Shown: positions 89-10,291, numbered from the stretch's first letter. The stretch: DNA of 32,376 bases from a bacterium (GCA_021813965.1 JAKAJB010000002.1:1-32376), one strand, 5' to 3'. Made by a program: numbers and translations. Notes: generated by a model not told the origin, from the letters alone.

Positions 89-116
89 GGCCTGTCCTTG
101 GATAGGCCTTTCATTT
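89..116 (+). terminator. Intrinsic terminator
   Basis: GGCCTGTCC-TT-GGATAGGCC hairpin followed by TTTCATTT. Confidence 0.6.
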
Positions 117-119
117 GCC

Positions 120-180
120 ATACTGCGCGCATGCATTTCACCATCCATACCGACGGGGGCTCAAGAGGGAACCCGGGGCC
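120..180 (+). repeat. Direct repeat copy 1: duplicated rnhA promoter-proximal bases and first ~17 codons
   Basis: 61 bp identical to 704-764. Reads MHFTIHTDGGSRGNPGPA, then diverges and stops at 212-214. Confidence 0.95.
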
Positions 181-268
181 GGCACCTCATTGCTCTTGTG
201 GCGGTATTTGCTAAAGTCTGACCGGAAGTTTTACCGCAGCTCAACATCACACTACTAAGGGGGTCTTT

Positions 269-652
269 GTGAAAATCAGAACACTTCTGTGGCTCAAGAA
301 GCATGACATTCGGCTCTTCGGTATTCCGCTGGAACAATTCCAAGAGCGCACCTTTCTCCGGTACATCGCCCCGGCGCGACTGCGCTTACAACTACGGCTC
401 GCTCGGATCGAAATGCGCTTCAACCACGGACACCCGGTGTACTCGTCTCATCCGTGGCTTCAGGTAGATACAGCCGCAGCAAGATATCTGAACGAGAACG
501 AATACTTCCAGTATCACAAACATCGCCACCGTCTTATCAAACGCGCGACACTCCAAGAGCAGGGGTACGACGTATGCAAGCGATTGCGCGCGAAGCCCGG
601 ATGGCTCCGCTTCTCGCGGCCGCTACGATCCGACAAGCACACGGGGTGGTGA
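269..652 (+). CDS. Orphan basic (Arg/His-rich) hypothetical protein, 127 aa; cargo of micro-island 1
   Basis: GTG start preceded by SD-like AAGGGGGT, TGcTAAAGT -10-like element near 209-217, own terminator at 669-697. No family recognised. Confidence 0.65.
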   Translation: MKIRTLLWLKKHDIRLFGIPLEQFQERTFLRYIAPARLRLQLRLARIEMRFNHGHPVYSSHPWLQVDTAAARYLNENEYFQYHKHRHRLIKRATLQEQGYDVCKRLRAKPGWLRFSRPLRSDKHTGW

Positions 653-668
653 ATCGGGATTTGATTTT

Positions 669-697
669 GCTCGTCCTTCGGGACGAGCTTTTTCTTT
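669..697 (+). terminator. Intrinsic terminator
   Basis: GCTCGTCC-TTCG-GGACGAGC followed by TTTTTCTTT. Confidence 0.85.
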
Positions 698-714
698 GTT
701 GGTATACTGCGCGC

Positions 715-1143
715 ATGCATTTCACCATCCATACCGACGGGGGCTCAAGAGGGAACCCGGGGCCTGCCGGCTCAGGCGCGATGATCCGCGACCATCTGGG
801 GAACGCGGTCGCGAGCGTGTCACAATTCCTCGGCATTCGCACCAACAATTACGCCGAATACGAAGCGGTCATCCTCGCATTCGAAATGCTCGCGAAACAT
901 GTCGGGGAGAAGAGAGTCGGCGCGACCGACGTCGAAGTGAAGATGGACAGCGAGCTCATCGTGAAGCAGATGAAGGGAGTATATAAAGTGAAGCACCCGA
1001 CTATGAAAGCCCAGTTCGCGCGAGTCATGAAAGCGAAAGAGGCATTCAAAGAAGTGTCCTTCACGCACGTCCCGCGCGCGCAGAACGCCGACGCCGACGC
1101 CCTCGCGAACGAAGCGATGGATCGCGGTTCGAATCCTAAGTAG
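715..1143 (+). CDS. rnhA: Ribonuclease HI family protein, 142 aa
   Basis: Motifs TDGGSRGNPG, TNNYAEY, MDSELIVKQM and HVPRAQNADADALAN. ATG 715 lies 6 nt after TATACT. Confidence 0.93.
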   Translation: MHFTIHTDGGSRGNPGPAGSGAMIRDHLGNAVASVSQFLGIRTNNYAEYEAVILAFEMLAKHVGEKRVGATDVEVKMDSELIVKQMKGVYKVKHPTMKAQFARVMKAKEAFKEVSFTHVPRAQNADADALANEAMDRGSNPK

Positions 1144-1200
1144 CCAGCCAGTTTTAGATGGATTCGGAGTCCGGCTGATTTCTTTTGCTACGATTTCTGC

Positions 1201-1263
1201 ATGGGTGCACTCATTGCCGTAACGACAGGATTCGCGAGCAGGGTTGGACTCCGCTCGCTTTTT
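1201..1263 (+). repeat. Diverged duplicate of the comEC 5' end
   Basis: 55/63 identical to 1909-1971. Preceded by TACGAT-N6-ATG, matching TACCAT-N6-ATG at the intact copy. Confidence 0.9.
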
Positions 1264-1286
1264 GTCTTTTGTCGTGTATAGTTTAT

Positions 1287-1375
1287 ATGTGCCTGTGGGG
1301 CGTCAGCCCTATTTCGGCTAATACATAAGCCGAAGGCAGGCATATCAAAACCACCGACCTCGCGTCGGTGTTTTT
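1287..1375 (+). ncRNA. Candidate small structured RNA (three-way junction plus terminator)
   Basis: TATAGT at 1277-1282; 10-bp outer stem 1287-1296/1336-1345 enclosing 5-bp and 8-bp hairpins; several G-U pairs on the + strand; terminator at 1352-1375. Confidence 0.5.
1347..1375. terminator. Bidirectional intrinsic terminator
   Basis: AAAAC-CACCGAC-CTCGC-GTCGGTG-TTTTT, just beyond the stop of the minus-strand gene at 1380. Confidence 0.8.
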
Positions 1376-1379
1376 GCTT

Positions 1380-1867
1380 TTAGTCATCCTCCGGGTTGCC
1401 CTTCATCGTGCTGTACAGTTTCATGTCGCGATACTTGTTCGTAGTCCATGCTGGCACGACGCTCCAGAAATGAAGCTGCCCGTTGTCGCCGATCTTCCGC
1501 AAGATCACTTTTATCTTGCGCCCGTCGATGATGGCGATGATGCCCCAATATTTCACCGGCTTACTCTTCCGTACTTTCTTCTTGAAGCTTTTCACTTCGA
1601 ATTCCTTGAGCGTCACTTCGTATTCCTGATATGTCGTAGAAAGCTAGAAAGCTCCGTGAGCCTGATCGCTATCGGCAGAAGCTTGAAGCGCAGTATCTGC
1701 GACGAGCGTTCACGCTCGCTTCGCGGACCCTTGAAAATCACGTGATTGAACCCTTCTGCGGTGAAATGTACGAGCTCGCCAAGCGCCGGGGAGTGGACCG
1801 GTCGCGTGCCGATATAAAACTTCTGCGCATCTTCGCGGAGCTTCTCGTAGTTGGAAACATCTTCCAT
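1380..1867 (-). pseudogene. Frameshifted ~159-aa protein, probable BECR-fold (PBECR/LPD3-like) nuclease; cargo of micro-island 2
   Basis: ORFs 1613-1867 and 1380-1616 join in frame (…LTELSTTYQEYEVTLKEF…) when one copy of TAGAAAGC (1637-1652) is removed. The VHFTAEGFNHVIFK…IKVILRK…HFWSVVP pattern suggests a BECR fold (inference). Confidence 0.75.
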
Positions 1868-1908
1868 ATCGAAAAAGTGTACACCCATCCTTGCGCTACC
1901 ATATACGG

Positions 1909-3528
1909 ATGGGTGCACTCCTTGCCGTAACGACAGGATTCGCGAGCGGGATATTTTTCCGCTCGCTTTTTCATTTCGGGTGGGAACCGGTGGCGTTTAC
2001 GGGATTGCTCGCCGCGCTTCTGGGCGCGGCGGCGTTTATGAAGCCGCGCCGAGTGTACTCGCTCGGCGTGGTGTTCTTTGTGCTCGTCGCCTTCGGGATG
2101 CTGCGCGCAGCAGATGCTGACGCGCCGCTCCCCGACGCCTTCGCGAGCCAAGTGCGGCATCGCGTGTCGTACGACGGGACGGTCGTTGCCGACCCTGATG
2201 TGCGCGATGCCAATCAGCGCGTCGAGATACGTGTCACGAGCGGCGCCGACACGACGACGGTGCTCGCGGTCGCGCCGCGCTACCCGAGCGTCGCAGTGGG
2301 GGATTCGGTGCACGTGTCTGGGACGCTCGAAGTCCCGCAGCCGTTCGCGGGCGACAACGGTCGCGTCTTCCGCTACGACAAATACCTCGAGCGCGACGGC
2401 GTGCGTTTCATACTCAACTTCGCCTATCTGCGCGTGACGCAGAGCGCGCCGTGGTATTCGCCGCCGGCGGCACTCGCGCGCATGAAGCACGCATTCCTCG
2501 ACGGTCTCGCCGCGACGCTTCCCGAACCGTACGCGAGCTTGGCGGGCGGCGTGGTGATAGGAGGGAAGACCGGTCTCGGGAAGGACCTACAGGACGCTTT
2601 CACGCGGAGCGGGCTCGTGCAGATCATCGTCCTCTCCGGCTACAACGTGATGGTCGTCGCCGAGTGGGTCATGGCGGCGCTCGCGTATATCAAACTCTCC
2701 AAGCGGTGGAGCTCGGTGGCAGGAGCGATTGCCATCCTCATCTTCGTCGGCATCGCGGGAGCCTCGGCCACGGCGCTGCGCGCCATGCTCATGGCATTCA
2801 TCGCGCTCTACGCGCGCGCGACCGGGCGCACCTACGCGGCGAGCCGCGCGCTCCTCGCCGCCGTATTCCTTATGCTCCTGTGGAACCCGCTCTACCTCGC
2901 ATACGACCCGGGCTTCGGGCTCTCGGTCGCCGCGACTGCCGGGCTCATCTGGCTCGCGCCAAATATAGAAAGACTGCTCGAAAACGTATCTTTGTGGAGG
3001 CGTATCAAAAAGCCCTCAGATGCGCGACGCGGGGAAGTGATTCCTGTAGGCGTACTACAAGGTACGACGGAAGGAATCACGGGGCCCCGCAACAAAGCAG
3101 ATGGGGCTTTGGGGTATGCCTCGTTCTGGAAGAATGCGATTGCGACAACCCTCGCTGCGCAGATCGCCGTTCTGCCACTCCTCCTCTACGACACCGGCAA
3201 CCTCTCGCTCGTCGCGATACCCGCGAACCTCATCACGATGCCGGTGGTGCCGGCCGCGATGGGGCTGTCTGCGCTCGCCGGGTTCGCTGGGATGCTCTTC
3301 GGCTCTTTCGCGCCGCTCTTCGCCATCGTGCTCGCGTCACCCGCCTACCTCGCGAACGCCTACCTTATATATGTCGCGCAAAAGGCCGCCGAACTTCCGC
3401 TCGCGGCCTTCACGCTTCCGTCATTCCCGTTCTGGCTCGTGCTTCTCGCTTATGCGGCGCTCATCGCAGCCGCGAAGCGCTTCTCGACGACCGGCCAGTT
3501 GAGGTTGGCGAGGAACGCTTCGACGTAA
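1909..3528 (+). CDS. comEC: ComEC/Rec2 competence DNA-uptake channel (OB/DUF4131 plus Competence domain, no fused MBL domain)
   Basis: Multi-TM protein with F…SGLVQIIVLSGYNV, SATALRA, WNPL…DPGFGLS and ANL motifs. ATG 1909 lies 6 nt after TACCAT. Confidence 0.92.
   Translation: MGALLAVTTGFASGIFFRSLFHFGWEPVAFTGLLAALLGAAAFMKPRRVYSLGVVFFVLVAFGMLRAADADAPLPDAFASQVRHRVSYDGTVVADPDVRDANQRVEIRVTSGADTTTVLAVAPRYPSVAVGDSVHVSGTLEVPQPFAGDNGRVFRYDKYLERDGVRFILNFAYLRVTQSAPWYSPPAALARMKHAFLDGLAATLPEPYASLAGGVVIGGKTGLGKDLQDAFTRSGLVQIIVLSGYNVMVVAEWVMAALAYIKLSKRWSSVAGAIAILIFVGIAGASATALRAMLMAFIALYARATGRTYAASRALLAAVFLMLLWNPLYLAYDPGFGLSVAATAGLIWLAPNIERLLENVSLWRRIKKPSDARRGEVIPVGVLQGTTEGITGPRNKADGALGYASFWKNAIATTLAAQIAVLPLLLYDTGNLSLVAIPANLITMPVVPAAMGLSALAGFAGMLFGSFAPLFAIVLASPAYLANAYLIYVAQKAAELPLAAFTLPSFPFWLVLLAYAALIAAAKRFSTTGQLRLARNAST
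2997..3122. mobile_element. 126-bp palindromic miniature element inserted in frame in comEC
   Basis: Nested inverted repeats GAGGCGTATC/GGTATGCCTC, AAAGCCC/GGGCTTT, GCGGGG/CCCCGC, GTGATTCCT/AGGAATCAC and CGTAC/GTACG. Encodes a 42-aa hydrophilic insert between TM segments. Confidence 0.75.
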
Positions 3529-4600: not shown

Positions 4601-4843
4601 TTAAATGACGCCTGCTTTCTTAAGAGCCGCGAATGCGCCGTTTTTCTTGATGGTCTTCAAGCCCTTCATCGAAACGTCGACGATGACGGTCTTCTCGAGC
4701 TCCGGCACGTAGATGCGGCGCTTCTGGAGGTTGGCCTTGCGGCGGACCTTCCCGGTCGGGTTGAACTGGGTCGCGCGGACGCGGTTGGAGTACCGCCCGC
4801 CTACCTGCGTGCTCTTTCCGGTGATTTCACAAGCTCGTGCCAT
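4601..4843 (-). CDS. rpmB: 50S ribosomal protein L28
   Basis: MARACEITGK…SNR…RRKANLQK…VSMKGLKTIKKNG. Confidence 0.95.
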   Translation of the reverse strand: MARACEITGKSTQVGGRYSNRVRATQFNPTGKVRRKANLQKRRIYVPELEKTVIVDVSMKGLKTIKKNGAFAALKKAGVI

Positions 4844-4882
4844 AGTCCCCGCATGGTAGCATAGGATACGAAACGAGCAACT

Positions 4883-5515
4883 ATGGCCACCATCCTCTCT
4901 TTCATCATCCTCATCATATCCATCATCGCCCATGAAGTGTCGCATGGTTACGCGGCAGACGCGCAAGGCGACCCGACCGCGCGCCTCGCCGGCCGCCTGA
5001 CCCTCAATCCGCTGCCGCATATCGACCTCATGGGCTCGATCGTCATCCCCGCATTCCTCGTATTCTCCGGTTCATCGCTCCTGTTCGGTTGGGCGAAACC
5101 GGTGCCGTACAACCCCTACAACCTGCGCAACAAGCGTTGGGGCGAGACGCTCGTCGCCGGAGCCGGCGCGGCGACCAACCTCTTCCTCGCCTTCATTTTC
5201 GGTCTCATCGTGCGTTTCGGCGCAGCGACCCTCCCGCCGGCAGCCATCTCGCTCGCGGTGACTATCACATTCGTCAATCTCTTCCTCGGCATCTTCAACC
5301 TGATCCCGTTCCCGCCGCTCGACGGCTTCACGGTGCTCCGGAGCGCGCTCCCGTGGCACCTCGCTTCCGGGCTGAACCGCTTCGAACAGAAGATGCGCGG
5401 CGCGGGGATACTTTCTCTCCTGTTTTTCCTCATCATCTTCTCCTATATTTTCGTCGGGCCATTTTTCAATTTCGTCCTATGGCTCTTCGGTCTCATCACC
5501 GGGGTGAGTGCTTGA
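4883..5515 (+). CDS. Site-2 protease (peptidase M50) membrane metalloprotease
   Basis: HEVSH and FNLIPFPPLDG motifs; GDPTARLAGRLTLNP. Confidence 0.92.
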   Translation: MATILSFIILIISIIAHEVSHGYAADAQGDPTARLAGRLTLNPLPHIDLMGSIVIPAFLVFSGSSLLFGWAKPVPYNPYNLRNKRWGETLVAGAGAATNLFLAFIFGLIVRFGAATLPPAAISLAVTITFVNLFLGIFNLIPFPPLDGFTVLRSALPWHLASGLNRFEQKMRGAGILSLLFFLIIFSYIFVGPFFNFVLWLFGLITGVSA

Positions 5516-5573
5516 AGCGCGAGTACACACTGTGACGCGCAGTTCCTCATGTGCGGCTGCTATACTATACGGA

Positions 5574-6020
5574 ATGGAGTACCAGGTACCGCAGTTCATC
5601 GAGGTCGAGGATAAGATCATCGGCCCGCTGACCTTAAAGCAGTTCATCTACCTCGCCGGTGCAGCCGGACTCGTCGTCGTATTCTTCTCCTACCTGCCTT
5701 TCATCGTCGCCGTCCTATTTTCCATCCCGGTCGCCGGGCTCGGCGCAGCGCTCGCATTCTATAAGGTAAACGGAAAATCTTTCGTGGAAATGCTCGAAGC
5801 GGGCTTCAATTATTACACCGGCAAGAAGCTCCTTCTTTGGAAATACACTGCTCCGACGGCGCAGGAGACGAGCGCGGCAGCGTCTGCGGCCGCGGCCGCA
5901 GACGCTGCCGCGCGGCCCGTGCGAGGCGCACCACGCCTCACGAGCGGGAAGCTCTCGGAACTCGCCTGGTCGCTTGACGTGAAGTCCTCGAGCAGCGAGA
6001 CGCCGAGACGAGCCGCATAA
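5574..6020 (+). CDS. PrgI family (VirB3-like) protein
   Basis: YQVPQFIEVEDKIIGPLTLKQF followed by two TM helices. ATG lies 7 nt after TATACT. Confidence 0.85.
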   Translation: MEYQVPQFIEVEDKIIGPLTLKQFIYLAGAAGLVVVFFSYLPFIVAVLFSIPVAGLGAALAFYKVNGKSFVEMLEAGFNYYTGKKLLLWKYTAPTAQETSAAASAAAAADAAARPVRGAPRLTSGKLSELAWSLDVKSSSSETPRRAA

Positions 6021-6025
6021 ACACT

Positions 6026-6664
6026 ATGCCGAACACCGCACAAGCAGGGAAAACGCAGCAATTCGTCCCCATAAAAGAAATACGAAACGGCACCATCGTC
6101 CTGAAAGACGGCGGCTACCGCGGCATACTTATCTGCTCCGCAATCAACTTCGGGCTCAAATCGGCCGAAGAACAGCACGGCATCATCCTCGGCTTCCAGA
6201 ACTTCCTCAACACGCTCGATTTCTCTATACAGATCGTCATCAATTCACGCCGCATGGACCTGCGCCCGTACCTTGCGCTCCTCCAAGAGAAGATGCCGGA
6301 CCAGAAAACCGAACTTATGCGCATCCAACTGCGCGAGTACATCGAATTCATCGGTTCGTTCGCCGAGCAGACGAACATCATGACTAAGTCGTTCTATATC
6401 GTCGTCTCCTACGCGCCGCATGTGACTGCCGCCGGCGCGGTGAGCTTCTTGCGCCAGGGAAGTGCGGCCACGAAGAGCGCAGCCGATGAAGCGTCCTTCG
6501 AAGAGGACCAGGCGCAGCTCGAGCAGCGTCTCTCACTCGTCGCTGCCGGGCTCGCAGGCACGGGCGTACGCGCCGTCCCGCTCGGCACCGAAGAAGTCAT
6601 CGAGCTTCTCTATCGCTCCTTCAACCCGGGCGAGCTTGAGAACCCTATCCGCCTTGAGGCATGA
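6026..6664 (+). CDS. TraC/VirB4 N-terminal-like T4SS protein
   Basis: TQQFVPIKEIRNG…INFGLKS.EEQ…FLNTLDFSIQI…LLYRSFNP; lies between prgI and virB4. Confidence 0.8.
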   Translation: MPNTAQAGKTQQFVPIKEIRNGTIVLKDGGYRGILICSAINFGLKSAEEQHGIILGFQNFLNTLDFSIQIVINSRRMDLRPYLALLQEKMPDQKTELMRIQLREYIEFIGSFAEQTNIMTKSFYIVVSYAPHVTAAGAVSFLRQGSAATKSAADEASFEEDQAQLEQRLSLVAAGLAGTGVRAVPLGTEEVIELLYRSFNPGELENPIRLEA

Positions 6665-6697
6665 GTTTTAAACTTTTAAATATTTAAATATCTCACC

Positions 6698-8518
6698 ATG
6701 GCACTCCTCGACTTCCTCAGCCGCAAACAGAAAGAAGAAGCTCCGGCGATCACGCCGGTGCTGCCGCGGGATATCTACCGGCAGAGTTCGCTCGATCTCG
6801 TCGATACTATCGCTCCGACCGCGCTCAAGATAGGCTCGCGCGAGCTTGAGCTCGGCGAGAAATTCGTCCGCACCTTCTACACCGTCTCGTATCCGCGTTT
6901 CCTCTCTGACAGCTGGTTCTCGCCGGTCATCGATCTCGACAAAGTGCTCGATGTTTCCATCTTCATCCATCCGGTCGAAACCGAGACCGCACTTCGCAGC
7001 TTCCAGAAAAAGGTCGCCGAGGTCCAGAGCCAGATCAATGAGCGCGAGGCGAAAGGGCTCGTGCGCGACCCGCTCCTGGATACGGCCTACCAGGATCTCG
7101 AGGCCCTGCGCGACAACCTGCAGCAAGCGCAAGAGAAGCTCTTCGACGTAGGTCTCTACCTCGCGCTCTACGGCGACACGAAGGAGGAGATAGCGAAGAC
7201 CGAGGGAGACATCCGCGGCATCCTCGATGCGAAGCTCGTCTATACCAAACCCGCCCTGTTCCAGCAGGAGCAGGGATTCCGCTCGTGCCTCCCGCTCGGA
7301 AGCGACGAATTGCTGGTCAATTCGAAGCTGAATTCCTCGCCGCTCTCGTCCATCTTCCCGTTCGTCTCTTTCGACCTCACGAGCGACCGCGGCATCCTCT
7401 ACGGCATCAACCGCCACAACTCTTCGCTCATCCTCTTCGACCGCTTCTCGCTCGAGAACTACAACTCCGTCGTCTTCGCGAAATCCGGCTCCGGCAAGAG
7501 CTATGCGACCAAGCTCGAAATCCTTCGTTCGCTCATGTTCGGCACGGACGTCATCGTCATCGACCCGGAACGCGAATACGAGCAGCTCGCCGAGGCGACG
7601 GGCGGACGCTCGTTCAACATCTCTCTTTCCTCAGAGAACCACATCAACCCGTTCGACCTCCCGCCGGTGCGGGAAGACGAAGACCCGAAAGACATCCTGC
7701 GCTCCAATATCATCTCGCTCGTCGGCCTCTTCCGCATCATGCTCGGCGGTCTCTCTCCGGAAGAAGACGCTATCGTCGATCGCGCCATCAGCGAGACATA
7801 CGCGCTCAAAGACATCACCGGCGAATCCGATTTCACCGGCGCCGAATCGCCCCTTCTCTCCGATTTCGAGCAGGTGCTCTCCGGCATGGAAGGAAGCGAG
7901 TCCCTGATTGAGCGCCTTTCCAAATACACCCGCGGCACGTGGTCCGGATTCATGAACCAGCCGACCAATATCGACCTCAAGCAGCAGTTCGCGGTATTCT
8001 CCGTGCGCGACATGGAAGACGAGCTGAAGCCGGTCGCTATGTACATCATCACGCACTATATCTGGAACGCCGTGCGCCATGAGATGAAGAAGCGTCTCCT
8101 CATCATCGACGAGGCGTGGTGGATGATGAAGAGCGATGACACCGCCTCATTCCTCTACTCGCTCGCGAAGCGCGGCCGCAAATACTACCTCGGCGTCTGC
8201 ACCATCACGCAGGACGTCGAAGACTTCCTCAAGAGCCCGTACGGCCGCCCGATCCTCACGAACTCCTCGCTGCAGCTGCTTTTGAAGCAGTCGCCGACGA
8301 CCATCGATGTGCTCCAGAAGACGTTCAACCTCACCGACGAAGAGAAATACCTCCTCCTCGAGGCCGGGGTGGGGGAGGGGCTCTTCTTCGCCGGATTGAA
8401 GCACGTCGCCATCAAGGTCGTCGCGAGCTACACGGAAGATCAGATCATCACCTCCGACCCCTCGCAGCTCATGGCGATAAAGCAGGAAAAGAGCCGCTAT
8501 GCCGCCGAGCAGAAGTAG
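6698..8518 (+). CDS. virB4: VirB4-like type IV secretion ATPase
   Basis: Walker A AKSGSGKS, VIDPEREY, INPF, Walker B LLIIDEAW, RGRKY and ITQ motifs. Confidence 0.9.
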   Translation: MALLDFLSRKQKEEAPAITPVLPRDIYRQSSLDLVDTIAPTALKIGSRELELGEKFVRTFYTVSYPRFLSDSWFSPVIDLDKVLDVSIFIHPVETETALRSFQKKVAEVQSQINEREAKGLVRDPLLDTAYQDLEALRDNLQQAQEKLFDVGLYLALYGDTKEEIAKTEGDIRGILDAKLVYTKPALFQQEQGFRSCLPLGSDELLVNSKLNSSPLSSIFPFVSFDLTSDRGILYGINRHNSSLILFDRFSLENYNSVVFAKSGSGKSYATKLEILRSLMFGTDVIVIDPEREYEQLAEATGGRSFNISLSSENHINPFDLPPVREDEDPKDILRSNIISLVGLFRIMLGGLSPEEDAIVDRAISETYALKDITGESDFTGAESPLLSDFEQVLSGMEGSESLIERLSKYTRGTWSGFMNQPTNIDLKQQFAVFSVRDMEDELKPVAMYIITHYIWNAVRHEMKKRLLIIDEAWWMMKSDDTASFLYSLAKRGRKYYLGVCTITQDVEDFLKSPYGRPILTNSSLQLLLKQSPTTIDVLQKTFNLTDEEKYLLLEAGVGEGLFFAGLKHVAIKVVASYTEDQIITSDPSQLMAIKQEKSRYAAEQK

Positions 8519-9263
8519 TGAGAAGCCGCCCGAGGCGATGACCTTGCTGAGAGCGATGCCGGTCATCGCGTTCGCCGGCGTTTTCGATCTCCTCAAGATG
8601 CTTTTCGAGGCGTTCTGGTTCTTCGGGCCGGCACTCGCCGCCGTGTATTGTTCTGCGAAAGTAAACGGGATTTTGACGACTTGGACGGCCGGGTTGCTAG
8701 GGATGAAAACCGCGGCGCTCGCATGCTCCGCGGCTGTTACGGGTGCCGTCGCCGGGGCCACTGTAGTCACCGGCGGGTTGAGTGCGGAAGCAATCGAGGT
8801 ATTCGGCATCATCATGGCGATGGCCGTCGGTTTTCTCGGGAACATCGCCGTCCTGTTTTGGCTCCTTGCGAAGAATCCTCGTATTTTCAAAGCGAATGAG
8901 CGTGCGGCGTTATGGTTCGGCGGCAGCTTCCTGGTAAGCGAATTGCCGTTCATCGGGGCGTTCCCTGCATTATCAGTGACGCTCTGGAGGATGTACAAGA
9001 AACAGATACAAGCTGACGCCGCGGCTCATGCGGCATGGAAACGGAAAAGTGCGCAAGACGCGGCGGCGCGCGTCCAGGAAAGACAGCAGCAGGCGGCGGG
9101 GCTTATGCAGGCCAATGCTATCCGTGCCGACCAGATGCAGCAACAAGCCGCGAATGACGCTCAGTATGCCGCGCAAGAGCAGGAAGCGACGGAGCGAGAA
9201 AATGCTGAGGTCGATGCTGCAAATGATGCGCAGTATACCCAAAACTTCGCTGACGCAGCGTAG
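8499..9263 (+). CDS. Multi-TM membrane protein with Q/A-rich coiled C-tail (start may be 8538)
   Basis: Hydrophobic N-terminal two thirds; overlaps the virB4 stop. Confidence 0.7.
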   Translation: MPPSRSSEKPPEAMTLLRAMPVIAFAGVFDLLKMLFEAFWFFGPALAAVYCSAKVNGILTTWTAGLLGMKTAALACSAAVTGAVAGATVVTGGLSAEAIEVFGIIMAMAVGFLGNIAVLFWLLAKNPRIFKANERAALWFGGSFLVSELPFIGAFPALSVTLWRMYKKQIQADAAAHAAWKRKSAQDAAARVQERQQQAAGLMQANAIRADQMQQQAANDAQYAAQEQEATERENAEVDAANDAQYTQNFADAA

Positions 9264-9292: not shown

Positions 9293-10291
9293 ATGCGCTT
9301 CGGATTCTTCACTGTGTGTGCGGTCGCCCTCTTCATCCCGATAGCGGCATCGGCGCAATCGATCGGCGGCACGACAGGGGGCGGCGCTCCTTCGTTTACG
9401 ATTTCGGTGTCCCCGCAGTACCCGGCGCCCAATAGCCAAGCATCCATCTCCTTCTTGTCTTCCTCGCTCGATCTCGCTAATGCGACCGTCTCGGTCTCGG
9501 TCGACGGTAAGAAAATCTACACCGGGACCGCGCAACCGGTTTCAATCCCTCTCGGAAGAGGGGGGAGCGCCACATCGGTCTCCGTGGATGTTTCCTCAGG
9601 TGGCAGCACCTATACCCAGTCGGTGTCGCTGCAGCCGCAGGATGTCTCTCTTATCGCCGAGCCGGTCGCATCCGCGCCGATACTCTATCCCGGCAAACCG
9701 CTTGTTCCTATCGAAGGCGATGTGCGCATCGTCGCTGTGGCGGCTTTGAGAGACGCAGGAGGGAAGATATACGACCCTGCAACGCTTTCCTACGTATGGA
9801 CGGTCGACGGCTCTCAGATAACGAACGCTTCCGGTATCGGGAAAGAAGCGCTTATGGTGGCCTCGCCGCTTCAGTACCGCGGACGATCTGTCTCGGTCGT
9901 CGTACAGAACCAGGCCGGAAATCTCGTCGGCGGCGCGGAGCTCTCCCTATCGGCCGCAGAGCCGTCGGTACGCATCTACGCGAATGACCCGCTCCTCGGC
10001 ATCCTCTATGACCATGCGCTCACCGGGGCCTATGCCATCACCGGCGCGGAGGCTGATCTGTACGCGGCGCCGTTCTCTTTCCCGCTCACCGGCGGTGCGC
10101 CTTCGCTCGAATGGTTCCTGAACGGCGCTCCCGCACAGTCAGGCGGTTCCCTGACGCTCCGGCCGACCGGGACCGGGCAAGGGAATGCAGCTTTGACGCT
10201 TACGTCGTCCGCCGGCACCTCCGCCGAAGCGACTGCGAACCTCTCTCTGTCCTTCGGCGCTGCACAGAATACTAACCTCTTCGGCCTATGA
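9293..10291 (+). CDS. Secreted beta-rich (Ig/PKD-like) protein
   Basis: Signal peptide ending ASA-Q, YVWTVDG and LEWFLNG Ig-like strands. ATG lies 6 nt after TATACT. Confidence 0.75.
   Translation: MRFGFFTVCAVALFIPIAASAQSIGGTTGGGAPSFTISVSPQYPAPNSQASISFLSSSLDLANATVSVSVDGKKIYTGTAQPVSIPLGRGGSATSVSVDVSSGGSTYTQSVSLQPQDVSLIAEPVASAPILYPGKPLVPIEGDVRIVAVAALRDAGGKIYDPATLSYVWTVDGSQITNASGIGKEALMVASPLQYRGRSVSVVVQNQAGNLVGGAELSLSAAEPSVRIYANDPLLGILYDHALTGAYAITGAEADLYAAPFSFPLTGGAPSLEWFLNGAPAQSGGSLTLRPTGTGQGNAALTLTSSAGTSAEATANLSLSFGAAQNTNLFGL

What the first reader, a model, noticed from the sequence alone, without database searches (positions are those of the whole stretch)
120..1971. Two adjacent integrase-less micro-islands, each bounded by a duplication of a housekeeping gene's 5' end
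Seen: the same layout occurs twice in 2 kb: [-10 box + first ~20 codons of gene X, dead end] - cargo gene and terminator - [-10 box + intact gene X]. For rnhA, 120-180 equals 704-764 (61/61; period 584 bp). For comEC, 1201-1263 resembles 1909-1971 (55/63; period 708 bp). The cargoes are unrelated, and the window holds no integrase or transposase. Established: integrative elements that target coding genes restore the disrupted end, but they normally encode a recombinase. Inference: this may be a general route for capturing single-gene cassettes at leaderless gene starts, by single-crossover integration of small circles or transformed DNA carrying a gene-start homology tag. It would be reversible by recombination between the repeats. 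The different divergence of the two repeat pairs suggests independent events of different age.
Basis: partly seen in the sequence, partly recalled or inferred. Interest (0 to 1): 0.82.

Follow-up and report, generated by a model that had tools for sequence, protein, structure and literature searches.

The report
Displaced gene-end copies flanking acquired genes
Two small foreign gene units sit at the starts of two housekeeping genes of a tiny uncultured bacterium, each bracketed by a spare copy of the gene's start, which looks like the scar of how these recombinase-poor bacteria take in genes from their relatives.

Summary
Both repeat pairs are real: 115-183/699-767 (69 nt, exact core 61/61) and 1182-1263/1890-1971 (82 nt, 82%). 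The longest exact direct repeat in 200 shuffles was 17 nt.

Cargo 1 is a rare 127-aa gene with its own ribosome site and terminator. Cargo 2 is a two-part module: a ~90-nt structured RNA plus a convergent 159-aa gene, broken here by an 8-nt duplication. The module occurs across Patescibacteria; 79 of 80 fetched loci keep the RNA.

The rnhA|comEC junction is a hot spot. It is empty in 10 and filled with unrelated genes in 15 of 25 genus genomes.

The layout is not specific to gene starts. It also occurs at gene 3' ends: rpsR in this genome, and a five-copy array behind an ABC-transporter gene in a closed relative. One more start case (alaS) was found.

Dead and live copies differ mostly by silent changes and stop-to-stop swaps, so they look like different working alleles.

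No integrase, resolvase or DDE transposase was found in the genome; RecA is present.

Best reading (0.5): scars of homology-anchored uptake of relatives' DNA. This is a new variant of known "sequential displacement". Circles and reversibility remain untested.

The parts
89..108 (+). Terminator-like hairpin with a T run, ending the unknown upstream gene just before the left rnhA-start copy.
   Evidence: stem 89-108, 8 pairs; sequence.
115..183 (+). Left, dead copy of the rnhA start. It has a -10-like CATACT at 119-124, ATG at 131 and 17 rnhA codons, then runs out of register to a stop at 212-214. It probably serves as the promoter for cargo 1 (inferred).
   Evidence: family D2; 61/61 exact.
184..698 (+). 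Cargo 1 unit. It holds a Shine-Dalgarno-like AAGGGGG at 258-264, a GTG-started ORF at 269-652 (127 aa), and a terminator hairpin at 669-688 with a T run. No promoter of its own was found.
   Evidence: Only itself in the word-indexed search. Seven distant homologues at 31-41% identity. No Pfam, PHROG or NCBIfam hit.
699..767 (+). Right, live copy of the rnhA start (TATACT 703-708, ATG 715), continuous with intact rnhA at 715-1143.
   Evidence: RNase_H, RVT_3; the same promoter-ATG geometry in 29 of 29 relatives.
1182..1281 (+). Left, dead copy of the comEC start (TACGAT 1189-1194, ATG 1201). It has 21 codons like the live copy and about 3 more like orthologues, and reaches a stop at 1279-1281. 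It keeps the conserved hairpin with T run (1234-1258 plus TTTTT). It sits where comEC starts in empty-site relatives, 57 nt after the rnhA stop.
   Evidence: (family D1). The matching hairpin in the live copy (1942-1966) is.
1277..1378 (+). Small-RNA gene of cargo 2. It has a -10 TATAGT at 1277-1282, a conserved core at 1289-1343 (three helices) and a terminator at 1352-1370 with a T run. Its usual -35 is replaced here by the comEC remnant.
   Evidence: 79 of 80 loci, 79-95% identity; 18 predicted pairs, 2 with compensatory change; terminator on both strands; no credible Rfam match.
1380..1867 (-). Protein gene of cargo 2 (family of about 159 aa), convergent with the RNA. It is broken here by a tandem 8-nt duplication at 1633-1648, which gives the two ORFs 1613-1918 and 1380-1616.
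   Evidence: intact 159-aa copy in L028; the 8 nt are missing in runs X3 and X4 at full depth. Also (635 homologues; model pLDDT 73, no PDB fold match at E <= 0.001).
1890..1971 (+). Right, live copy of the comEC start (TACCAT 1897-1902, ATG 1909), continuous with comEC at 1909-3528.
   Evidence: (Competence, DUF4131).

Best explanation
The two 'micro-islands' are recombination scars at a hot spot of gene exchange. They are not self-mobile elements.

Proposed steps:
1. DNA from a related strain carries a foreign gene unit next to its own copy of a conserved gene end. That end is either promoter + first codons, or last codons + stop.
2. RecA pairs the shared gene end, which acts as the anchor.
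3. The other side is joined illegitimately inside the resident gene. Alternatively, the incoming piece first closes into a circle and crosses over once within the short homology.
4. Either way the gene stays intact. One end copy is left behind as a dead duplicate, and the cargo sits between the two copies.

A dead start copy keeps a leaderless promoter and can drive promoterless cargo such as cargo 1. Repeats much longer than about 100 nt would quickly recombine and delete the cargo, so only short ones persist. Repeated rounds at one site build arrays.

Shown: the layout, its recurrence at gene starts and gene ends, empty and alternative alleles in relatives, allele-like differences between copies, and no recombinase found by the profile searches while RecA is present.

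Inferred: the anchor-plus-illegitimate-join mechanism, uptake by competence, promoter use, and the stability filter on repeat length.
For: 1. Hot spot. I counted 25 genus genomes with rnhA and comEC on one fetched locus. The junction is about 0-100 bp in 10 of them and holds 260-2200 bp of mutually unrelated genes in 15.

2. The bracket recurs with unrelated cargo and at both kinds of gene end.
- rpsR 3' end: 40 nt at 95% identity around a 294-aa gene in contig C20.
- G017 alaS start: 63 nt at 95% identity around two genes.
- G017 ABC-transporter 3' end: repeated five times, each copy ending exactly at a stop codon and followed by a different gene.
- L085 murA 3' end, L074 gene 3' end, L093 promoter + start.
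- L065 carries two dead comEC starts.

3. Copies look like working alleles. In 9 dead-versus-live comparisons from 6 loci, 28 of 40 differing codons are silent or stop-to-stop. Against 28% expected the p-value is 4e-8. Counting shared differences once gives 19 of 31, p 1e-4. Five of 6 changed stop codons are still stops (p 4e-4). The dead comEC copy carries residue states (V-G-L) seen in orthologues G036 and G007, and the live copy carries I-F-F as in G010, G002 and G033.

4. The machinery fits. In this 93.5% complete genome there were 0 hits for Phage_integrase, Resolvase, rve and DDE_Tnp_1. RecA has 1 hit, and comEC itself is present.

5. A published model of the same kind exists for effector-immunity arrays and Rhs orphans (PMC5361080, section 13, read).
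Against: - No donor-recipient pair was identified. A sliding-window comparison of comEC with 11 relatives showed no mosaic. All relatives are only 55-84% identical, so that test had little power.
- The rnhA pair is 61/61 identical and carries no allele signal. A fresh in-place duplication fits it equally well.
- If the live copy simply went on evolving after an in-place duplication, about 42% silent differences would be expected (my estimate). Against that figure the conservative count (19 of 31) gives only p 0.024.
- The G017 pheT case shows 5 non-silent changes against 1 silent and a lost stop. It surrounds an rve-family transposase gene, so a transposase-made long duplication is possible there.
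- Repeat lengths cluster at 26-136 nt. The anchor model does not itself predict this; the stability filter is my inference.
- Within each genome the dead and live comEC starts share genome-specific stretches in patches. The model needs later gene conversion to explain that.
- Of the 15 filled junctions in relatives, none shows a comEC-start repeat.
Confidence: 0.5

Rival explanations
1. One reading: a cassette system based on small circles. Each cassette carries a short homology tag (a copy of a gene end). It excises by recombination between its two flanking copies and re-inserts by a single crossover into any genome that has that gene. This would work like integron cassettes but with RecA in place of an integrase, and it would be reversible.
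For: - The final structure is identical to that of the best explanation. All repeats (26-136 nt) are at or above the length RecA is known to need (the figure is recalled).
- The array in G017 and the double dead start in L065 look like cassette arrays.
- The rnhA pair is identical over 61 nt, so excision is possible in principle.
Against: - No circle junction or same-strain empty allele was seen. However, k=31 contigs cannot show either, because the repeat is longer than k.
- In run X1 the depths of the left flank, cargo 1 and the stretch after the repeat are 14.1, 14.9 and 16.4. That gives no sign of an extra circle or an empty allele.
- The inner end points of the five array copies differ (49-69 nt). 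One cassette family re-using one tag would not give that.
- Most repeat pairs are only 82-95% identical, which would hinder RecA excision.
Confidence: 0.18
2. Long, variable target-site duplications made at insertion by staggered cuts. The enzyme would be unrecognised and act in trans, or for cargo 2 it could be the module's own 159-aa protein with its RNA. The dead copies then simply decay.
For: - Some insertion sequences are reported to make duplications of 8-514 bp (IS1549 and IS1634; PMC2266710, passages read).
- In G017 a 72-nt pheT-end repeat surrounds an rve transposase gene, with decay-like differences.
- Nine of 79 module loci carry flanking repeats of at least 50 nt, against 25 of 700 random places (odds ratio 3.5, p 0.005).
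- The module is patchy in the genus: 8 of 151 genomes have the close form. It often lies on very short contigs.
Against: - Cargo 1, the C20 gene and the G017 cassettes share no ends or protein.
- I noted no terminal inverted repeats when reading the cargo ends. This was a check by eye only.
- The distance from repeat to module core varies from 0 to about 355 nt.
- Differences between copies are mostly silent and stop codons are kept.
- The module protein has no known fold: 0 of 749 Foldseek matches at E <= 0.001. It has no transposase domain.
- No DDE, rve, tyrosine or serine recombinase was found in this genome.
Confidence: 0.14
3. Site-specific integration. The gene ends would be attachment sites, and the cassettes would be non-autonomous elements moved by a recombinase encoded elsewhere, by a phage or by a neighbouring cell.
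For: - Three species share exactly the same junction in comEC.
- The five array copies share one exact outer end at the stop codon.
- Known integrative elements restore the gene end that they interrupt. The example SXT at the prfC 5' end is recalled, not checked here.
Against: - No recombinase of the four families searched was found in the genome. The two Y1_Tnp genes belong to a family that, as far as I recall, makes no duplication.
- The targets are many unrelated sequences: rnhA, comEC, rpsR, alaS, murA, an ABC-transporter gene and intergenic DNA.
- The shared comEC junction is explained more simply by common descent or by transfer of the whole block.
- The fixed outer end is simply where the alleles stop being alike.
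Confidence: 0.1
4. Assembly artefact: strains mixed in one bin were joined wrongly at short shared sequences.
For: - The bin holds more than one strain. Contigs C21 and C32 are 87% alike, and both are 78-79% like window 4614-8983.
- k=31 contigs of the four runs break at both repeats.
Against: - Contig overlaps of 127 nt show a large final k, far above the repeat lengths.
- Unitigs run from inside one repeat through the cargo into the other repeat with 0 differences (records 2, 10, 18, 26).
- The same comEC layout stands in three other assemblies.
- Similar brackets stand in a closed one-contig genome.
Confidence: 0.03

Closest known systems
Sequential displacement by homology-facilitated illegitimate recombination: T6SS effector-immunity arrays of Vibrio cholerae and Rhs orphan arrays (PMC5361080; abstract and section 13 read)
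   Same: - A conserved stretch anchors the incoming DNA.
- New genes go in next to the anchor and the old end is pushed downstream.
- Repeated rounds build arrays.
- No integrase is involved.
- The copies come from different strains rather than from in-place duplication.
   Different: - Here the anchors are ends of ordinary housekeeping genes, including leaderless 5' ends with their promoters, not toxin genes.
- The cargo is any small gene.
- The leftover is only 26-136 nt.
- The hosts are Patescibacteria.
Minimal mobile elements of Neisseria. Named in PMC1538595 (passages read). The definition, from Saunders and Snyder 2002, is recalled and was not read.
   Same: Different whole-gene cassettes lie between the same two conserved genes in different strains of a competent bacterium. 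They are exchanged through flanking homology without any mobility gene. This matches the rnhA|comEC junction: 10 empty and 15 filled of 25.
   Different: As recalled, minimal mobile elements leave no duplicated gene ends, because both crossovers are homologous. Here one side leaves a dead copy.
Insertion sequences that make long, variable direct repeats: IS1549 and IS1634 (PMC2266710, passages read)
   Same: The inserted DNA is flanked by direct repeats of tens to hundreds of bases of target sequence. The mechanism of these IS elements is unexplained.
   Different: Those elements carry a large DDE transposase and terminal repeats. Cargo 1 and cargo 2 have no such transposase, and I noted no terminal inverted repeats by eye. 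Their repeat copies also differ in an allele-like way.
Integron gene cassettes (general knowledge, also mentioned in PMC5361080 section 13)
   Same: Single, often promoterless genes are added at one site, expressed from a resident promoter, and stacked in arrays with a repeated site between them.
   Different: There is no IntI (0 Phage_integrase hits) and no attC-type imperfect palindrome shared between cassettes. The repeated site is a piece of the neighbouring gene.
Integrative elements that enter a gene's 5' end and supply a new start (SXT/R391 at prfC; recalled, not checked)
   Same: The gene's 5' end is targeted and its function is kept by a replacement promoter and start.
   Different: Those elements are large and carry a tyrosine recombinase with a short core site. 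None of these features is present here.

Membership tests
Integron cassette array | An IntI tyrosine recombinase gene next to the array | tested here: not met
   PF00589 gave 0 hits in the whole genome (93.5% complete), while the control rang in 14 of 14 genomes.
Integron cassette array | attC sites, which are imperfect palindromes shared by cassettes | tested here: not met
   The repeats are direct copies of rnhA and comEC starts and are unlike each other.
Site-specific integrative element (attL/attR) | A tyrosine or serine recombinase encoded in the element or the genome | tested here: not met
   PF00589 gave 0 hits and PF00239 gave 0 hits. The cargo proteins have no such domain.
Site-specific integrative element (attL/attR) | Direct repeats of the target bound the element and the interrupted gene is restored | tested here: met
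Insertion sequence or transposon with target-site duplication | A transposase gene (DDE, rve or Y1) in the element | tested here: not met
   There is no Pfam hit in either cargo. The genome has 0 rve and 0 DDE_Tnp_1 hits. Its 2 Y1_Tnp genes lie on other contigs.
Insertion sequence or transposon with target-site duplication | The two target copies are identical at birth and later decay at random | tested here: inconclusive
   The rnhA pair is 61/61 identical, which fits. Other pairs show 28 of 40 silent codon differences (19 of 31 when shared differences are counted once), which does not fit.
Minimal mobile element (hot spot between conserved genes) | Different cassettes, or none, lie between the same two conserved genes in related genomes | tested here: met
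   10 empty and 15 filled of 25, with unrelated cargoes.
Minimal mobile element (hot spot between conserved genes) | Exchange by natural transformation | not testable with these tools
   Only comEC and recA are present. The organism is uncultured.
Sequential displacement / homology-facilitated illegitimate recombination | A displaced remnant of the anchor gene lies next to the older cargo, and arrays form after repeated rounds | tested here: met
   Window, L065 with two dead starts and the G017 five-copy array.
Sequential displacement / homology-facilitated illegitimate recombination | The copies stem from different strains, not from in-place duplication | tested here: inconclusive
   The excess of silent and stop-to-stop differences favours it. 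No donor was identified, there was no mosaic signal, and patchy within-genome likeness was seen.
Sequential displacement / homology-facilitated illegitimate recombination | Microhomology at the illegitimate joint | not tested
   This needs a near-identical empty allele. The relatives at hand are 55-84% identical.
Toxin-antitoxin pair with an RNA antitoxin (type I or III), considered for cargo 2 | A toxic protein neutralised by an adjacent small RNA | not testable with these tools
   Only the gene-RNA linkage is shown (79 of 80 loci). There is no family or fold match.

The most novel reading that the evidence does not exclude
Patescibacteria, which largely lack integrases and transposases, may use short copies of conserved gene ends as portable recombination sites. 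These copies would be a promoter plus first codons, or last codons plus a stop. Single genes tagged with such a copy could leave as small circles and enter any relative that has the same gene, using only RecA. Expression would be ready-made from the duplicated leaderless promoter. Arrays would grow at favoured genes. This would be a homology-based counterpart of the integron and a main route of gene flow in these reduced genomes.
Probability: 0.15. Interest if true: 0.85.

Novelty: new variant of a known kind. Interest (0 to 1): 0.6.

Why it matters
How the very small, recombinase-poor genomes of the candidate phyla radiation gain and lose genes is poorly understood, and these organisms cannot be grown alone.

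These brackets are a readable footprint of single acquisition events. They show where DNA came in and which gene served as the anchor. They also show that ordinary gene ends, including leaderless starts with their promoters, serve as entry points, and that arrays can build up there. The pattern can be searched for in any genome without knowing a mobility gene.

The work also brings out a very widespread and very conserved RNA + 159-aa protein pair of unknown function that travels between these genomes.

Tried and rejected
- **Upstream extension of the rnhA repeat.** Alignment of 60-119 with 640-703 scored 2.0. Shuffles had mean -4.4, sd 3.6 and maximum 7.5, so the score is not significant.
- **Mosaic test of comEC against 11 relatives.** No break was seen. 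All relatives are too distant for the test to have power.
- **Tree of RnhA + ComEC N-terminus (27 rows; rows lacking either part were left out).** The window groups with L063 but also with G024 (empty site) and G011 (other cargo). L065 falls elsewhere. Support is weak and was not used further.
- **Function of cargo 1.** Pfam, PHROGs and NCBIfam gave nothing at E <= 0.1 apart from one PHROG of unknown function at 0.035. The Atlas feature search pointed to Rep_trans fragments at 0.87, which is under the tool's own bar, so it is a lead only. Two metagenome scans found no locus. An order-wide scan gave 9 of 401 genomes, G000 included; the other 8 hits are weak, with best E 1e-7.
- **Function of cargo 2.** Pfam gave only LPD3 and NAT10 hits below cut-off. 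Foldseek against the PDB gave 0 of 749 matches at E <= 0.001. There was no match in plasmids or phages. Rfam gave nothing at gathering score and only chance-level hits at E up to 10.
- **Same-strain empty alleles and circles.** Read laying returned only k=31 contigs, which cannot tell these forms apart. The joints it listed (999>1935, 1124>1934, 1128>1936) carry other letters and belong to related organisms with empty sites. In run X4 one contig puts 1144-1342 behind a tRNA-like end, and another continues the rnhA end into other sequence. This is unexplained.
- **Search for G017 array cargo next to a live ABC gene in other genomes.** Only two candidates per genome were scored, so the result is inconclusive.
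- **Other repeat pairs set aside.** Several pairs in G000 proved to be tRNA genes (C9, C41), domain repeats or paralogues (C3, C4, C37, C12, C22, read by eye), or terminator-like hairpins (C7, C24, C27). They were not counted as brackets.
- **Papers.** Three paper searches were run. No search was made for prior descriptions of gene-end brackets in Patescibacteria or of the RNA + protein module. I therefore make no claim that these are not in print. Supplementary files were not opened.

Full report
**The observation.** The window is one whole contig (C16) of a 565-kb, 60-contig bin.
- 115-183 vs 699-767: 69 nt at 96%, with an exact core 120-180 = 704-764 and a period of 584.
- 1182-1263 vs 1890-1971: 82 nt at 82%, with a period of 708.

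In 200 dinucleotide-preserving shuffles of the first 5 kb, the longest exact direct repeat within 3 kb was 17 nt, against 61 observed. Pfam confirms rnhA (715-1143), comEC (1909-3528) and a superoxide dismutase on the other strand. Each repeat holds a -10-like hexamer, six bases, ATG and 17-21 codons. The same hexamer-to-ATG geometry stands before rnhA in 29 of 29 relatives, so these are leaderless-type starts. An assembly artefact is unlikely. Contigs of this bin overlap by 127 nt, independent k=31 contigs of four runs run from one repeat through the cargo into the other without a difference, and the comEC layout recurs in three other assemblies.

**The cargoes.** Cargo 1 (184-698) is a GTG-started 127-aa ORF. 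It has a Shine-Dalgarno-like motif and its own terminator, and I found no promoter of its own, so the dead rnhA promoter is its likely driver (inferred). The word-indexed search found only the protein itself. The exhaustive search found seven homologues at 31-41% identity with shared motifs. It is therefore a real but rare gene of unknown function.

Cargo 2 (1264-1889) has two parts. The first is a small-RNA gene on the plus strand, with a -10 at 1277-1282, a core at 1289-1343 and a terminator at 1352-1370. The second is a convergent gene of a 159-aa family on the minus strand (1380-1867). In the window this gene is split by a tandem 8-nt duplication at 1633-1648. Runs X3 and X4 lack those 8 nt at full depth, so the gene is intact in some populations.

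The protein family has 635 hits, nearly all of 159 aa and 57-84% identical across many Patescibacteria lineages. In 79 of 80 genome loci the RNA lies directly behind the gene at 79-95% nucleotide identity. RNAalifold predicts three helices with 18 pairs, most of them invariant and two with compensatory change. Neither part matches a known family or fold, and neither occurs in the plasmid or phage collections. In the genus the close form is patchy: 8 of 151 genomes, G000 included.

**The neighbourhood in relatives.** The order recJ-rnhA-comEC-sodA is kept in most of the 12 relatives whose upstream DNA I read; in G019 and G029 a HIT gene, not recJ, lies next to rnhA. In G000, recJ lies on another contig. 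The 72 nt at the start of the window encode a different C-terminus, so what lies left of the first repeat is unknown.

In 25 genus genomes both gene starts lie on one fetched locus. The rnhA|comEC gap is about 0-100 bp in 10 of them and 260-2200 bp in 15. The filled gaps hold mutually unrelated genes: a glutamine-amidotransferase-like gene, a PemK-like gene, a DUF559-like gene, a PurM-like gene, a HIT gene and others. These names are from reading the translations by eye. None of those 15 has a repeat of the comEC start. G023 has a 26-nt repeat of the rnhA 3' end around its HIT gene.

Three further species carry cargo 2 at this junction. L062 and L063 have the same dead comEC start, cut at the same point just before the RNA's -10 box. 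L065 has two dead comEC starts and extra cargo. The comEC event is therefore old or was passed on as a block.

**The layout is general and not tied to gene starts.**
- In this genome, the last 12 codons and stop of rpsR are repeated 1049 nt downstream (40 nt, 95%). They bracket a terminator and a leaderless 294-aa gene.
- In the closed genus genome G017 (rebuilt), a 63-nt repeat holding a -10 box, ATG and 13 codons of alaS brackets two genes.
- In G017, a 72-nt repeat of the pheT 3' end brackets an rve-family transposase gene.
- In G017, the last 49-69 nt of an ABC-transporter gene stand five times in a row. Each copy ends exactly at a stop codon (TAG, TAA, TAG, TGA, TGA) and is followed by a different gene, including an AAA-type gene, a RhuM/Fic gene and an HD-domain gene.
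- Among 79 module loci, 9 have flanking repeats of at least 50 nt. They cover a murA 3' end, another gene's 3' end, a promoter plus start, and intergenic DNA. The rate at random places was 25 of 700, giving an odds ratio of 3.5 and p 0.005. This is a modest enrichment.

**What the copies say.** In nine dead-versus-live comparisons from six loci, 28 of 40 differing codons are silent or stop-to-stop. Counting differences shared by array copies once gives 19 of 31. Both counts exceed the 28% expected for random change (p 4e-8 and 1e-4). The lower count exceeds only weakly the 42% that I estimate if the live copy alone kept evolving (p 0.024). Five of six changed stop codons are still stops (p 4e-4), though two of these may share one origin.

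The dead comEC start reads like a working orthologue. Only one invariant glycine is lost, and its V-G-L state is found in G036 and G007. The live copy's I-F-F state is found in G010, G002 and G033. Within each genome the two comEC copies also share genome-specific stretches in patches, which points to later gene conversion. The pheT case goes the other way, with 5 non-silent changes against 1 silent.

**Machinery.** Profile searches of the whole genome (93.5% complete) found no Phage_integrase, Resolvase, rve or DDE_Tnp_1. They found two Y1_Tnp genes on other contigs and one RecA.

**Reading.** The best-supported account is that these brackets are scars of homology-anchored acquisition. A conserved gene end on incoming DNA from a relative pairs with the resident gene, and the foreign part is joined illegitimately or through a one-crossover circle. 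The gene stays whole and one end copy is left dead. This is the mechanism proposed for effector-immunity and Rhs orphan arrays (PMC5361080, section 13), here acting at housekeeping gene ends. The junction behaves like a Neisseria minimal mobile element. The upper limit of repeat length (136 nt) would follow if longer repeats recombine and lose the cargo, which is my inference.

I cannot separate the linear and circular variants. An enzyme-made long duplication, as reported for IS1549 and IS1634 (PMC2266710), is not excluded, least of all for the identical rnhA pair and the pheT case. Reversibility, circles and same-strain empty alleles remain untested because only k=31 contigs were served.

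**Verdict.** This is a new variant of a known kind of process. It has a useful side product in the widespread RNA + protein module.

Noticed in passing
window 1277-1867; loci L057-L136: A two-part module is spread across Patescibacteria and occurs in a few other bacteria, including records titled Brevundimonas (L125, L127). It consists of a ~90-nt structured RNA with its own promoter and terminator, convergent with a 159-aa protein of no known fold. The protein has 635 homologues at 57-84% identity. The RNA is present in 79 of 80 loci at 79-95% identity. The function is unknown; an RNA-protein pair such as a toxin-antitoxin or defence unit is a guess.
   Followed up: partly
window 2996-3113 (inside comEC): A palindromic stretch of about 115 nt is inserted in frame in comEC and is absent from the comEC of relatives. 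It folds as one long hairpin (z -4.9). It has two more copies in G000 (C24:11828-11920 and C13:1394-1487) and copies at other loci in many genus genomes. It resembles the palindromic elements that insert in frame in Rickettsia genes (recalled).
   Followed up: partly
window 1942-1966 and 1234-1258; comEC starts of relatives: Codons 11-21 of comEC (G-F-A-S-G ... R-S-L-F) are unusually conserved at the nucleotide level. They form an 8-bp GC-rich hairpin followed by a T run, a terminator-like signal inside the start of the gene. This may be an attenuator. The dead copy is cut just behind it.
   Followed up: no
G017:C1:526440-531241 (L166): An array of five copies of the 3' end of an ABC-transporter gene. 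Each copy ends at a stop codon of a different kind and is followed by a different accessory gene, including an AAA-type gene, a RhuM/Fic gene and an HD-domain gene.
   Followed up: partly
G000:C1:5914-6036 and 9521-9643 (L048): A 123-nt direct repeat (91%) brackets a 3.6-kb stretch whose largest ORFs are 462, 252 and 246 aa (functions not tested). It lies next to tRNA-Asp. The repeat has no Rfam match. It may be a further bracket or an unknown RNA gene.
   Followed up: no
L029 294-363 and 1520-1588 (G043, another family): A 70-nt direct repeat (91%) of hairpin-rich DNA behind rplE brackets an AT-rich 265-aa ORF and a small membrane ORF. It lies directly beside a decayed copy of the cargo 2 module.
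   Followed up: partly
G000 whole genome: No Phage_integrase-family gene was found, so not even a Xer-type recombinase, in a genome rated 93.5% complete. The bin also holds contigs of a second and third related strain: C21 and C32 are 87% alike and are 78-79% like window 4614-8983.
   Followed up: no
window about 1144 (runs X1-X4): Public-run contigs branch right after the rnhA stop. In run X4 one contig places 1144-1342 behind a tRNA-like 3' end, and another continues the rnhA end into unrelated sequence (tables 7 and 8). This suggests other arrangements of this hot spot in the same community.
   Followed up: no
G000:C27:18927-19484; C24:15845-16700; C7:3859-5510: Pairs of terminator-like hairpins of 35-47 nt bracket small units: a HicA/HicB-like pair, a PEBP-like gene and a Y1-transposase-like gene. 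The first two names are from reading by eye; Y1_Tnp is confirmed. They may be repeated hairpin elements rather than target duplications.
   Followed up: no
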